From the NCBI RefSeq assembly GCF_006345805.1, contig NC_043019.1, positions 22,505,360-22,569,359 of the forward strand: a stretch of DNA of 64,000 bases, given 5' to 3'. This stretch comes from Octopus sinensis. Taxonomy: Eukaryota. Positions 41,898-53,964 of this stretch are shown here, one piece after another. The position numbers and the translations under genes were made by a program. The notes below the pieces were generated by a model. That model saw only the letters and a list, made by a program, of their open reading frames with translations. It searched no databases and had not been told where the DNA came from. Numbering within the stretch: position 1 is the first letter of the stretch; each line of letters starts with the position of its first letter.

Positions 41898-43342
41898 TGT
41901 AGTGATGACGACCTGAAGGCTTTTTTTTTTTTTTAAATAAATGGTTTATTTCATATCCATTAATTATCAAAAATGTTTTTGTGTAATGCAAAATCACACC
42001 TTTTTATCTAATGGGACAGTGAGAAAGCATATAGAAATGAGTGTAGGTAGTCAAGCTGCTAGTAATTGGTTCAATACCAAGGTCAGCCAGACAGCACATA
42101 CTCTCGTCCAAGAAGAGAGAGAGCCATTGACAGCATATTTTATCTTGTTTTAGTCATTGGACTGCAGCCATGCTAGGGCACTGCTTCAGTCAAAGAATCA
42201 ACCCCACTGCTTATTGTTTTCAGCCTGGTAACTATTCCATTAATCTTTTTATGCCAAACCACTAAGTTACAGGGATGTAAATAAAACAACACCAGTTGTC
42301 GAGCAAGGTACAGGAGGACAAGCACTAACATCCACATATGCACATACGACAGGCTTCCACAGTCCCCAATTTCAGTCTACCAAATCCACTCACAAGGCTA
42401 TAGAAGAAGACACTTGTGCAGGATGCTGTGCAGTAGGATTGAACCTGAAACCGTGTGGTTACGAAGCACACAGCCATACCTGTGAGAAACTGTATCTGGT
42501 ATGAATAAGAAAATGAGGATTTTCTGCTTTCTGTTGGTTTGATAACAAGGTTTGGTTTGAAATTTCAAAAATGTTATAATAGAATACAACAGGCAGTTAA
42601 AAGATATCGGAGGTAACACCTGCTGAAACATTGTCTCTGTAACAACTAAGGTAAAGATGCTACTCTTAATACAATAATGGTTTCAAATTTTGCCACAAGG
42701 ACAGCAATTTGGGAGGGGGACGGAGGGGATGAGTTGATTTCATTGACCCCAGTGTTCAACTGGTACTTAATTTATCAACCCTGAAAAGATGAGAGGCAAA
42801 GTCGACCTTGGTAGAATTTGAACTCAGAACGTAGCAGCAGACGAAATACTGCTAAGCATTTTGTCCGATGTGCTCACGATTCTGCTACCTTGCAGCATTA
42901 TAGTCCTAATATAATAGTAATAGTAGTTCCACATCTCAGAAATTTGTCCCCCCTCCCCCACACACACATACACGCACAACAGTCACCATTCACAAGCATT
43001 ACTCAAGAGACATGTACCATGCTTTTGCTAACTGTCTCGGGTACCAATGTTGCCACAATTAGACATAGAAACCCCTCTTGACAACACTTCCACCGTCCCC
43101 TCCCCTTTACTCAGCTGATGTGACAGCTAGAGGGGAGGGAGGGAGGGAGGGAGGGAATGGAGGAAGGGTGCAACTCGAAGTGCCTTGCACAGGTGAACAA
43201 AACGCACTGCCTGTCTCAGGAGTCGAACCCACAATCTTATGACCGTGGGCCCACTGCCCCAACTACTAGGGCACACCACACGTTTACAAAGGCAAGTGCT
43301 ACAGCCTTAAACATTGTCATGATGGCTACAAACAACTATAGC

Positions 43343-43378
<36 letters not shown>

Positions 43379-43465
43379 TGTAGGTCCCGGGTTGATTCGG
43401 GGTTAACCACAGTAAATAAGGTACTCAATACATAGCAGAGTAAAATTAATTTATATATAGAAGGA

Positions 43466-43514
43466 GCTTCTACAGGACTAGAACTGTTTCATTCAAGAGA
43501 AATCTTCAGGAAGC
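43466..43514 (-). ncRNA. Type I hammerhead ribozyme motif, inverted copy of 43614-43670
   Basis: Minus strand GCTTC-CTGAAGA-TTTCTCTTGAAT-GAAA-CAGTTCTAGTCCTG-TA|GAAGC; 5 bp stem I. Confidence 0.78.
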
Positions 43515-43613
43515 CATCATGACAATGTTTAAGGCTGTAGCACTTGCCTTTGTAAACGTGTGGTGTGCCCTAGTAGTTGGGGCAGTGGGCCCACGGTCAT
43601 AAGAGAAATCTTC

Positions 43614-43670
43614 AGGAGCTTCCTGAAGATTTCTCTTGAATGAAACAGTTCTAGTCCTGTAGAAGCTCCT
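43614..43670 (+). ncRNA. Type I hammerhead ribozyme motif, compact
   Basis: AGGAGCTTC-CTGAAGA(43623-29)-T TTC TCTT GAA T-GAAA-CAG TTCTAGTC CTG-TA|GAAGCTCCT. 9 bp stem I, 4 bp stem III, GUA triplet. Stem II opens with a U/U mismatch. Confidence 0.8.
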
Positions 43671-43918
43671 TCTATATAATAAATTATATATATATATATG
43701 TATGTATATATATATATGTATGTGTGTGTGTATGTAATGTTGTCTGTAGCAGAAAATGACATATATAGGAAACTTTTTGTAAGTTTCCTTTAGGCGTGGC
43801 TTTATATATACACATGCATATAAATATACAATATTCACGCACACATGTGTGTTTACATAAGTTAATGAAGAGGAAAAGAAGAAAAGCTGAATTTAGTAAG
43901 ACAAACATGTGCATGTAT

Positions 43919-44090: not shown

Positions 44091-47000
44091 ATAACCTTTG
44101 CACTTGATTTTTTAATGTTTTTTCCCCCATACTTTGTGAGTTGGTTTAGGCAAACACTATCTGAGAGAGATCTTCTTTAAGTATTAGAAATAGCTGAAGA
44201 AATTTCTTTAGCTGCTATTTCTAATGAGTTCAGTATGTGGCAAAGTAATTTATTTTACTAAGCCCTTATATATAATGTATATATATATATATATATATTG
44301 TAACTTTCTTTCCAAAAATACGTTTTCTGGTGTGTAAATTACGATTACGTTAACATTTAACGGGGGTGGGGGAGAATTAGAAATGGTGGTGGTTGGTCGA
44401 TTATTTTCCTCCCCTCCTAGCTCTGCCTTTTTATTATTTTTTTTTTTTAAATGACAAAAATGCCATTTAAAATATATGCATTTTAAAGAAGTGGGGAAAT
44501 GGTTACAGGAAGAAGATGGAATGATCCAAAATTCCTTTAGAAGATATTAAGAAAAAGTCGGAATGTGGAGGCGGGGATTACTGTGTAGTTATGCTTATAT
44601 CTATATTGTGTGTTTTAGTTGTCGGTAATTAATCTAATTTCTAAATAAACTGTTCAGTTTGCACTAGATGCGACACGCTGCGATGACGTTGAACTTGCTA
44701 GAAATAGCAGTCGATTTTTTTTGTGTGTGTGTGAAATATTCACTGGCTTATAAAAAAAGGAAGATCGCAATGGTCCCTGGTGTCTTGGACTGGACCTTGT
44801 CTTTGTTTAATTTGGAATTAAACAATGCAACACGACCGAGTTTGTGATGTTGAGAAAGAGATGGAGGCAACGAATGAGGATGAATAAACCTCCGTTAGTT
44901 ACCGGTACATAATTATTGCATTTTCCTTTTTTTTTTAAATAGCATATTTGTACATCATACCAGGCCAGAAGTGAACCAAAACTAGCTGTACAAGTATTCT
45001 GCCTAGGTCGACTTTGCCTTTTATCCTTTTCGGGGTCAATAAAATAAAGTACTACTCAAGTACTGGAGTGGATATAATTGACTTATCTCGTCTCCTAAAA
45101 TCGCCCCAAATTTCAGGCCCTGAGCCTATAGTAGAAAGCATAATAATAATAATAATGATGATAATAATTAATTCGTTTATTGGCCACAAGGGCTGACAAA
45201 AATTAATTAAAACATAAAGGGACAAAACACAGGACGAAAGTTACAAAGGGTTTTGTCCTTTTGCAAAAATCCGTGTAAAAATTGAAATTCCCAAATAATA
45301 ATAATTATTATTATTATTATTATTATATATGGATTTGAGCAACACAAGATACAAGACCAACTTCTGAATGACAATTCATCGAAGAGTTCAATATCGCCAT
45401 CGTACTCAGTATCTGTTGAGCGAACCGAAAGTAACATGAAATGAAGTGCTTTTATTAAGGACGCAATGCACAACCCGGTCTGAGAATCGAACCACTACAT
45501 TATGATCGTTAGAGACTGGCATTCAAACTACTAGACATAAAATATTACTCTACACGTGTCATGGTGTTGAAGAAATAAACTTCCGAATAATCAGTTTTCG
45601 TGATTGAGAAACGTCAAGAATTTTTGACAACTTGTCAAAGACTTTATGAAACCAAAAAAGAACCCAGCAAGCCGTAACTTTGAAGTCGTTGTCAACCTTT
45701 CCCTAGAAGTTTTAAAAACTATAGATGTCTATAAGTGTGTGTGTGTGCGCGCGCGCACCCTGGGTATGATTTGAAGCTATATCCGGTAGTGAGGGCTCTG
45801 GCACGCCCGTCGCTAGGAAGGAGGATACTGGACGATACAGCACCTTCACTACTCAATGGTGCACACACTGATTTAGAAAATACAGTTTAGAAAATTTTTC
45901 TGCAATAGTGCCCACCCAGAATATTGTGAAGCACCCCCAGGCACCAAAGTCTGGCGATGGGTCAGGGCCCTAGTAGGCGAGTTCAAAGGTTTTGAGGAGT
46001 GTGGAACCAGCTCTTGGCCACTATTGTTTACAGGTCTGCTCTGGCCTGGAGTAGTAGCACATGTTAAGGTTCCAGCTATAGGTTAACTAGCTTGTGAACC
46101 ACTGAGAATAAAGACTTCCCAGTTCCTGTAAGAACGGGGAGAAAGTAAGCTAGTATAAATAAATAAAAATTGAACAGCAGTCGGATTCTGGTCGCCTCAA
46201 CCTCTGTTTGTGTCACTGATTTTCTAGCTGATTACGCAGAAAAATGGGTTCAATGCTGCGCAACACTTCATCCGCTCAAAAGAAATTCGCTCACAAAAAC
46301 TTCTTGGACTCTTGGAATGTTAACTTCCCCATACAAATATATATATATATATATGTGTGCGTGTGTGTATTGTATGTACGTATATAAGATAGTTAATAAT
46401 GCTACAGGAGTTAGTCAAAGACTTGCAGTTTCGTATCAAAACACTTGTCAAACTGAAAGAGAAAACCTGAGGAAAAAATAGAATATTCTAGAAAATACGC
46501 GTTGGCGTTATATACACCCGCTGTATGCATGCATACATATACATATCTGTGTGAAGAGAAAGATAAATGTTTGCATACATAAAGTGTGTGTGTGTGTGTT
46601 ATATTTATAAATATATACATACACGCATTTTATCGACATCGGGTAGAATTTGAACTCAGAAACCGCAGTCGATAAAATCACTCAAGTTCAAGGTCGATAT
46701 AATTGCTGTAACATGGCCACAAGTCCAGCGACCGACAATGGCATAAATAAAATGACGACTGTGTTTTCCGTATTTCTTCATCAGTGCCTTAGTTTATTTA
46801 ATTAGAACGTCCCTAGCTATGTCCAAGAGCAAACCTTATCAAAGCCAGTCCAGTCATGACCACCCCTTCAGTTTCGGGGAGTATCTAAAACTTACATTCA
46901 CCAATGTATTTCATCTTTAATTATGACAGAAGGATTTGGATTTTATATCAGCAGGTCAAAAGACCGACCACACAGAATGGCTCCAACGGACAAAGTTGCT

Positions 47001-52896: not shown

Positions 52897-53964
52897 TATC
52901 CATTGGAATCTGACAAGTCGTCTATAAAGCTAAGTGGTTGTAGAGGGACAAACAGAGATATACACACATGTATGTATACATATATATGACGGGCTTCTTT
53001 CAGTTTCCACTCACAAGGCTTTGGACAGCCCAAGGTTATAGTAGAAGATACTTGCCATGCAGTGGGTCTGAACCCAGAACCACATGGTTGGGCCACCAAC
53101 ATCTTGCCACACCTGTGCCTATATTAATCCTGGAAGTTCTGCAATACCAGGCCAACCTGTGGCATAGGTGGAGCAAGCCTCTAACTTTTCATCTCTTTCT
53201 AAACATCAGTTTAATAGGGACTGTATCAGAGATTAAGCTGACAAGAATCAAATATTATTAGGAATTGTACAAAAAAATTGTTAAACTATTTTGTATAGGT
53301 GCAGGAGTGGCTGTGTGGTAAGTAGCTTGCTTACCAACCACATGGTTCCGGGTTCAGTCCCACTGGATGGCATCTTGGGGAAGTGTCTTCTACTATAGCC
53401 TCAGGCTGACAAACGCCTTGAATGGATTTGGTAGACAGAAACTGAAAGAAGCCCATTGTATATATGTGTATATAAATATATATATATATGTGTGTGTGTA
53501 TGTTTGCGTGTCCATGTTTGTCCCCCTAGCATTGCTTAACAACTGATGCTGGTGTGTTTATGTCCCCATAACTTAGCGGTTCAGCAAAAGAGACTGATAG
53601 AATAAGTACTGGGCTTACAAAGAATATGTCCTGGGCTCGATTTGCTCGACTAAAGGCGGTACTCCAGCATGGCCGCAGTCAAATGACTGAAACAAGTTGA
53701 AGAGTATCTTGTAGAAGTATAACCAATTTATTGTAGATAGATTTTTTAAAAATCTTATATGGATTCCGATTGAGAACTATTGCTCTAAACCATCAATATG
53801 TCTCATTCCACCCTGCAAGTGGCTGCTCTGTGTGGTGAGCATACTTTGCACACCCTATGCTACACTACTTCCGTAATGCCTTTGATCATGGCAAGACTGG
53901 CCCAGGGTTAAACTAAGATGATGAATACACCAGCATCAGTTGTCAAGCGATGTTGGGGGGACAA

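What the first reader, a model, noticed from the sequence alone, without database searches (positions are those of the whole stretch)
43235..43686. Ribozyme element that copied 93 bp of its own upstream flank in inverted orientation
43512-43604 is the reverse complement of host sequence 43235-43327, which lies just before the TA tract at the insertion site. It is sandwiched between a minus-strand hammerhead (43466-43514), a 16 bp re-entry into the element (43601-43616) and a plus-strand hammerhead (43614-43670). Both junctions show microhomology (AGC and AAGA). Inference: repeated template switching between element RNA/cDNA and target DNA during integration, a direct footprint of the insertion mechanism.
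Basis: partly seen in the sequence, partly recalled or inferred. Interest (0 to 1): 0.72.

Follow-up and report, generated by a model that had tools for sequence, protein, structure and literature searches.

The report
Penelope join copies neighbouring host DNA
A jumping gene sits here as two back-to-back end pieces with a flipped 93-letter copy of neighbouring DNA between them; about a dozen sister insertions carry similar local copies, which likely record how the two halves are joined during insertion, a scar already known from human jumping genes.

Summary
In detail: 43512-43604 is the exact reverse complement of 43235-43327 (93/93), set between two head-to-head hammerhead arms, with AGC and AAGA overlaps. 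The element is the promoter/ribozyme end (pLTR plus 68-nt tail) of a Hydra-type Penelope-like retrotransposon. About 1,760 head-to-head cassettes were counted in this genome, and 176 of 187 fetched pairs have one tailed and one short arm. Arms stop at one A, 29 nt behind TATAAA, and are followed by an extra C (298 C against 32 G), likely copied from the RNA cap. So each arm is likely a separate cDNA primed from one side of a break in (TA)n. The 93-bp insert is not family sequence. It is one of 13 non-element junction inserts found; 12 match DNA within about 2.2 kb of their own site (9 direct, 3 inverted). The '16-bp re-entry' is better read as a short extension of the other cDNA's end. Raw-read and empty-site checks gave no test. 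Templated insertions are known for L1 and R2, and this scan noted the same in other genomes. New here: the cap-C evidence and kilobase-distant templates. Verdict: real, new variant of a known kind.

The parts
43235..43327 (+). Host source of the insert (left flank)
   Evidence: 93/93 reverse complement of 43512-43604; covered as flank sequence by contigs of public runs X17, X1, X18, X4
43343..43379 (.). Left (TA)n target tract
   Evidence: sequence; sister copies end in (TA)n
43380..43447 (-). 68-nt 'tail' of the long arm; in copies attached to the ORF it runs on to the start codon
   Evidence: L033, L036, L038 continue past the tail end into the ORF; short end +68, tail end +136, ATG about +182
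43380..43514 (-). Long (tailed) arm, about +2 to +136 of the element; inferred cDNA 1
   Evidence: 100% to two other genomic copies over 135 nt
43466..43514 (-). Minimal type I hammerhead motif in the long arm; predicted cut between 43471 and 43470
   Evidence: core and stems constant, variation confined to N7, loop II and loop III in the common variants among 366 motif copies; no Rfam hammerhead hit
43512..43604 (-). 93-bp inverted copy of the left flank (templated insertion); overlaps AGC and AAGA
43601..43617 (-). 17-bp repeat of element sequence; read on the minus strand as GGAAGCTC extended by CTGAAGATTTCTCTT, likely a short extension of the capped cDNA end primed by a 2-nt GA/TC overlap
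   Evidence: D14; same junction type in L006, L007, L083, L100, L106, L127 and others
43616..43685 (+). Short arm: extra G (43616, likely cap-derived), A+1 (43617) to the short end +68; inferred cDNA 2
43617..43668 (+). Minimal type I hammerhead motif in the short arm; predicted cut after 43661
   Evidence: activity not tested
43686..43735 (.). Right TA/TG microsatellite flank; no target-site duplication discernible
   Evidence: sequence

Best explanation
This is a short head-to-head insertion of a Penelope-like retrotransposon end in a (TA)n tract, and the 93-bp inverted flank copy is likely a templated insertion made while two cDNAs, likely primed from the two sides of the cut, were being joined. 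Shown: element identity, the two fixed 3' ends (+68 and +136), one tail per pair, the stop at A+1 plus an extra C, the local origin of the insert, junction microhomology, and recurrence in sister copies. Inferred steps: (1) the endonuclease cuts both strands in (TA)n. (2) RT primes from each end on uncleaved, capped RNA, at the tail site on the left and the short site on the right. (3) The left cDNA end (..GGAAGC) pairs by AGC with GCT at 43325-43327 on its own strand and copies 90 nt. (4) The right cDNA end (..GGAAGCTC) is extended by 15 nt on element cDNA through a TC/GA overlap. (5) The two new ends anneal by AAGA/TCTT and are filled in. Steps 3-5 could equally have run from the other end; sequence does not fix the order. 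The copying enzyme is not identified; a host end-joining polymerase of the Pol theta type is my first choice, the element RT second.
For: Parent element: the tail runs into an RT + C-terminal GIY-YIG ORF. Two fixed ends: 53 tailed and 47 short among 100 arms in the loci fetched for the first 100 places listed on contig C1; 176 of 187 pairs have exactly one tail. In 20 of 172 pairs the short arm reaches +1 while the tailed arm is cut, which a simple fold-back of the tailed cDNA does not give. Extra C: 298 against 32 G genome-wide, followed by varied bases (CCT 24, CAG 9, CTG 8, CTT 8, CAT 4, CAA 4, CAC 3, other 2 of 62) and present on both arms in L076, L098, L100, L107, L199, L290. TATAAA lies at -29 in 125 of the 135 copies tallied. 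Recurrence: 12 of 13 non-element inserts match their own flank better than any other fetched locus. Microhomology of 2 nt or more at 10 of 18 scorable junctions against 18% by chance, P about 3e-4. Inserts are no younger than the arm pairs: 13 substitutions in 1630 nt against 1 in 584 nt. Both-strand cutting and extension, two RT start sites and use of uncleaved RNA were shown in vitro for another PLE (PMC11167929).
Against: No read-level confirmation of this locus and no empty site. No RNA data for the start site or cap; an RT terminal-transferase C would look the same. 8 of 18 junctions have under 2 nt of overlap. In L077 the overlap sits at the end that the resected-strand model does not predict. 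Inserts of up to 370 nt from up to 2.2 kb away are longer and farther than the L1 cases (under 250 bp, within 15 bp) and the yeast fold-backs (5-34 bp), so the Pol theta assignment is weak. Arms may be homogenised after insertion, which weakens the age comparison. Four of the 12 local matches are soft: L109 is 20 nt, L110 is 89% identical, L144 lies in a tandem array, and L161 is a repeat with a 96% copy elsewhere.
Confidence: 0.6

Rival explanations
1. The element RT itself jumped from RNA to target DNA, back to RNA for 16-17 nt, and folded back.
For: Compatible with the local sequence; overlaps of 3 and 4 nt. In L161 the insert interrupts an arm that resumes almost in register. Other junctions hold pieces of the element's own ORF (L115, L129, L142, L157) or of another retroelement family (L216), which suggests jumps to RNA templates occur. 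L1 ORF2p use of DNA templates is mentioned in PMC11702581.
Against: The 17-bp piece has the form of a common family junction with no host insert. One continuous fold-back does not explain the one-tail rule, the extra C on both arms, or short arms holding 5' sequence that the tailed arm lacks.
Confidence: 0.17
2. The element inserted as a plain palindrome; later hairpin or cruciform breakage at its centre was repaired with a templated patch.
For: Head-to-head arms are near-perfect palindromes (1,347 with spacers of 20-79 nt). Palindromes are known break sites (PMC7999016, passages). Local templated inversions arise at ordinary breaks (PMC11724301, abstract).
Against: The locus holds both CAGGAAGC and CAGGAGC, which no single parent junction gives. 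The extra C next to the patch is an RT-end mark that a broken AAGCTT palindrome would not supply. Inserts are not younger than arm pairs.
Confidence: 0.13
3. The template was nascent host RNA from the locus, copied by the RT.
For: Both orientations are possible from RNA; distant inserts from another repeat family exist (L216).
Against: All 12 sources lie within 2.2 kb although 4.5-10 kb on each side were searched for most, a tighter spread than long introns would be expected to give (inference). Transcription of the sites was not tested.
Confidence: 0.05
4. Assembly artefact from a chimeric long read or mis-polishing at a palindrome.
For: No junction-spanning record was seen; many copies show single-base indels typical of long-read error.
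Against: Same junction position and same C-ended grammar in unrelated loci, microhomology excess, and substitutions between some inserts and their sources. A flipped read would give one long inversion, not a 93-bp detour. Contig simplification can drop such short links (my knowledge of the assembler), so the gaps prove nothing.
Confidence: 0.05

Closest known systems
Hydra-clade Penelope-like elements with inverted pLTR and tail (Craig et al. 2021, PMC8557442; passages and section 11 read)
   Same: C-terminal GIY-YIG, DKT, CxCX5C linker, no CCHH, CxxC and CxH, hammerhead, (TA)n targets, inverted 5'-truncated copy with the tail at one end
   Different: Tail is 68 nt (paper: 30-40 bp); long microsatellite-rich region after the ORF; the passages read do not describe host DNA at the inversion junction or a cap-derived base
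PAc Poseidon element in vitro (Frangieh et al. 2024, PMC11167929; main text parts 1-2 of 4 read)
   Same: Both strands cut and extended, two RT start sites define the tail, uncleaved RNA used, AT-rich targets
   Different: Different clade; the later joining steps are left open there; start sites lie inside the ORF there, upstream of the ATG here
L1 twin priming and templated insertions (10.1101/2024.08.27.596794, passages; PMC11702581, passages)
   Same: Two cDNAs from the two target ends joined by microhomology; local host DNA copied into the insertion (22 cases among about 3,600 insertions); extra G from the cap at full-length 5' ends
   Different: L1 arms copy different parts of one RNA, whereas here both arms copy the same 5' segment; L1 templates are typically under 250 bp and within 15 bp, here up to 370 nt and up to 2.2 kb away
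R2/PRINT snap-back junctions (PMC11371274, passages)
   Same: cDNA 3' end primes DNA synthesis on the cDNA or, less often, on nearby target DNA before the 5' join
   Different: One cDNA, fixed rDNA site, engineered system
Pol theta templated extension in cis and trans (PMC4912351, abstract); yeast fold-back insertions (PMC11724301, abstract)
   Same: Iterated short-microhomology priming in cis and trans at breaks
   Different: The yeast inserts are mostly 5-34 bp; no retroelement involved; enzyme not identified here
Self-priming on an antisense template for head-to-head Penelope copies (PMC3846280, passages)
   Same: Explains the same head-to-head palindromes
   Different: The one-tail rule and the extra C on both arms fit twin priming on sense RNA better (inference)

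Membership tests
EN+ Penelope-like element | pLTR/tail contiguous with a single RT + GIY-YIG ORF | tested here: met
   L033, L036, L038 run from the tail into the ORF; RT motifs FLQLDIED and YRDD, EN LVY..YIG read by eye. Pfam gave no RT or GIY-YIG hit.
EN+ Penelope-like element | Inverted 5'-truncated copy with the tail at one end only | tested here: met
   176 of 187 pairs have one tail
Hydra clade | DKT motif, CxCX5C linker, no CCHH, CxxC and CxH in EN | tested here: met
   PSDKTKN, CNCPDKTTC, one Cys between LVY and YIG, CDLC, CMH against section 11
Hydra clade | RWK motif | tested here: inconclusive
   RIRWRSFF (RWR) at the expected N-terminal region
Hydra clade | (TA)n targeting and hammerhead | tested here: met
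Hydra clade | Placement in an RT phylogeny with reference Hydra proteins | not tested
   no reference proteins fetched
Type I hammerhead ribozyme (minimal) | CUGANGA, GAAA, UH with three stems | tested here: met
   core constant, loops vary; stem II closes with T-T instead of G-C; Rfam models do not hit
Type I hammerhead ribozyme (minimal) | Self-cleavage | not testable with these tools
   arms run through the predicted cut site, so the template RNA was likely uncut
Non-LTR retrozyme | Non-coding tandem units each with a hammerhead | tested here: not met
   the sequence is the end of a coding PLE; definition from 10.64898/2026.07.22.740005, part 1 of 5
Templated insertion at an end-joining junction | Insert copied from DNA near the break | tested here: met
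   93/93 here; 12 of 13 in the survey
Templated insertion at an end-joining junction | Junction microhomology above chance | tested here: met
   10 of 18 with 2 nt or more against 18%
Pol theta-mediated end joining | Genetic dependence on Pol theta | not testable with these tools
   needs a knockout assay

The most novel reading that the evidence does not exclude
Penelope-like elements integrate by writing two separate full-length, cap-terminated cDNAs into the two ends of a double-strand cut, and the join is left to repair on ends resected or opened for 1-2 kb. This one pathway would make the inverted pLTR, the one-sided tail and local duplications of up to 370 bp, and would replace the antisense self-priming model.
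Probability: 0.4. Interest if true: 0.68.

Novelty: new variant of a known kind. Interest (0 to 1): 0.45.

Why it matters
How Penelope-like elements form their inverted ends is stated to be unresolved (PMC8557442, PMC11167929, passages read). These junctions give countable footprints: two start sites, a likely cap-derived base on each arm, and locally copied fillers. They favour twin priming plus end joining and give clear predictions for the existing in vitro system. They also show that the element duplicates nearby host DNA in at least 0.7% of compact inverted insertions. The single locus alone is a known kind of scar.

Tried and rejected
Rfam: no hammerhead hit at gathering or E<=10. Pfam: no RT or GIY-YIG hit. 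Unconstrained MFE folding did not give the hammerhead fold. Insert as family sequence: rejected, native upstream sequence is ..GTTAACTA, and no other fetched locus holds the 93-mer. Retrozyme: rejected. Raw reads of X21-X23 (about 3% of each run read): 0 laid, no test. Contigs of X17, X1, X18, X4 cover the source flank unbroken and show no junction piece; X3 does not cover the flank. This is uninformative because contigs show presence only. Empty site: not found; no related genome is held for this window. L157 insert: turned out to be element ORF. 18 of 29 uncovered segments were set aside by eye as short element fold-backs or older-subfamily sequence. In the microhomology count, the L162 left value and the unscorable L109 right junction were dropped; L110 and L144 were not scored. 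Orientation and side of the sources do not discriminate between strand models. Paper searches for a PLE twin-priming or junction-filler report found none among the listings; subscription papers and bioRxiv supplements are not covered.

Full report
Observation. Window 43512-43604 is the exact reverse complement of 43235-43327, 93 of 93 bases. It lies between an element arm on the minus strand (43380-43514) and one on the plus strand (43616-43685), the whole set in TA tracts. The match ends share AGC and AAGA with element sequence, and 43601-43617 repeats 43495-43511. The source ends 15 bp before the TA tract. Nothing like it occurs in about 1.07 Mb of other fetched DNA (best 79% over 39 nt).

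The element. The window lies in a 2.7-Gb genome. The 135-nt arm has many 90-100% copies; one 33-mer occurs 3,364 times. Upstream of the hammerhead, copies read ..GTTAACTA, not the insert. [quoted passage not shown] The protein has DKT, CNCPDKTTC, one Cys between LVY and YIG, CDLC and CMH, matching the description of the Hydra clade of Penelope-like elements (PMC8557442 section 11); RWK reads RWR. Pfam does not recognise it and no tree was built. The hammerhead core is constant, and common variants fall in N7 and the loops. Rfam does not hit it.

Family architecture. Head-to-head cassettes are the norm: 1,347, 238, 77 and 101 matches for spacers of 20-79, 80-110, 111-190 and 191-420 nt, about 1,760 with some double counting. 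Arms have two fixed 3' ends, +68 and +136. Among 100 arms in the loci fetched for the first 100 places on contig C1, 53 are tailed and 47 short, and 176 of 187 fetched pairs carry exactly one tail. In 20 of 172 one-tail pairs the short arm reaches +1 while the tailed arm is cut. Arms that leave the native sequence do so mostly at the A of AGCTTCC, 29 nt behind TATAAA. The next base on the cDNA strand is C in 298 places and G in 32 (A is native and T is the palindrome join; neither was counted genome-wide). That C is followed by varied bases and occurs on both arms of several pairs (this sample is enriched for non-native junctions by my searches). I infer a capped start at A+1 and two independent cDNAs, one from each target end. 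This fits the in vitro behaviour of PAc (PMC11167929, parts 1-2 read) and the cap-derived G of full-length L1 (PMC11702581, passages). It fits less well the antisense self-priming proposal (PMC3846280, passages).

Survey of junction inserts. I screened 151 fetched pairs with spacers up to 450 nt. They came from targeted searches and from part of the listings: 50 of 77 loci, about 33 of 101, a subset. Eleven had non-element inserts; three more were added by hand, of which L157 proved to be element ORF. Of the 13, twelve match their own flank. Inverted: the window (93 nt), L161 (72 nt, 1.6 kb) and L144 (ambiguous, tandem array). Direct: L077 (311 nt, 2.2 kb), L145 (370, 1.4 kb), L108 (232, 0.5 kb), L112 (221, 0.3 kb), L132 (201, 1.2 kb), L110 (141, 1.3 kb, 89%), L162 (84, 1.6 kb), L149 (83, 0.6 kb) and L109 (20, 0.6 kb). 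Each matches its own flank better than any other locus held. L216 comes from another repeat family, with a 99% copy on another contig. Overlaps of 2 nt or more occur at 10 of 18 scorable junctions against 18% in simulated blunt joins (P about 3e-4); some counts include the extra C or palindrome base. Insert-source divergence (13 of 1630) is not below arm-arm divergence (1 of 584). Twelve in about 1,760 gives a floor of 0.7%.

Mechanism at this locus (inferred). Left cDNA ..CAGGAAGC pairs with GCT at 43325-43327 on its own strand and copies 90 nt, ending ..TAAGA. Right cDNA ..GGAAGCTC is extended 15 nt on element cDNA by a TC/GA overlap, ending ..TCTT. The same GGAAGCT-CCT junction occurs in 24 of 62 C-ended arms, mostly without host DNA. 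The two ends anneal at AAGA/TCTT. The reverse order is equally compatible. The pattern resembles Pol theta extension in cis and trans (PMC4912351, abstract), but lengths and distances exceed the L1 and yeast cases read, so the enzyme is open.

Rivals. RT jumps RNA-DNA-RNA (0.17) is supported by L161 and by junctions holding ORF or foreign retroelement pieces. Later palindrome breakage (0.13) does not explain the extra C or the two different junction spellings. Nascent RNA template (0.05) and artefact (0.05) remain. Read checks gave no test: 0 raw reads laid in three runs, and contigs cover only the flank. X4's flank allele differs from both window copies by two single-base indels, so the insert matches this haplotype, though polishing could also cause that.

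Known and new. Templated local inserts are described for L1 (22 cases; 10.1101/2024.08.27.596794, passages), and snap-back onto target DNA for R2 (PMC11371274, passages). Four paper searches listed no report of this for Penelope junctions; subscription papers and preprint supplements were not visible. Notes of this scan on other genomes report the same twin-arm rule and local fillers; I saw them after forming my reading and did not check their loci. Verdict: real, new variant of a known kind, interest 0.45.

Noticed in passing
window 53114-53289 (-): U2 snRNA-like sequence, 54.6 bits with broken stems, probably a pseudogene
   Followed up: no
L216:2036-2193 (G000:C4:155255735-155255892): Junction with two tailed arms holding 158 nt of another, GC-rich repeat family (99% to a copy on C21); nearby frames there carry a CCHC knuckle and an RHN motif recalled as typical of RLE-type non-LTR elements
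   Followed up: partly
L115, L129, L142, L157 junctions: Head-to-head junctions filled with pieces of the element's own ORF 5' region
   Followed up: partly
L079, L086, L088-L091: Head-to-head pairs 1.9-5.3 kb across; the element's downstream region is rich in TA/TG microsatellites that belong to the element itself
   Followed up: no
L011 (G000:C3:47146826-47149959): RT coding sequence joined directly to the microsatellite-rich region, an internally deleted copy
   Followed up: no
L041:600-900 (minus orientation): An inverted tailed arm joined to a second tail that runs into the ORF
   Followed up: no
window 42779-42817 and 44996-45034: 82% inverted pair, two copies of a dispersed SINE-like repeat (family label recalled)
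   Followed up: no
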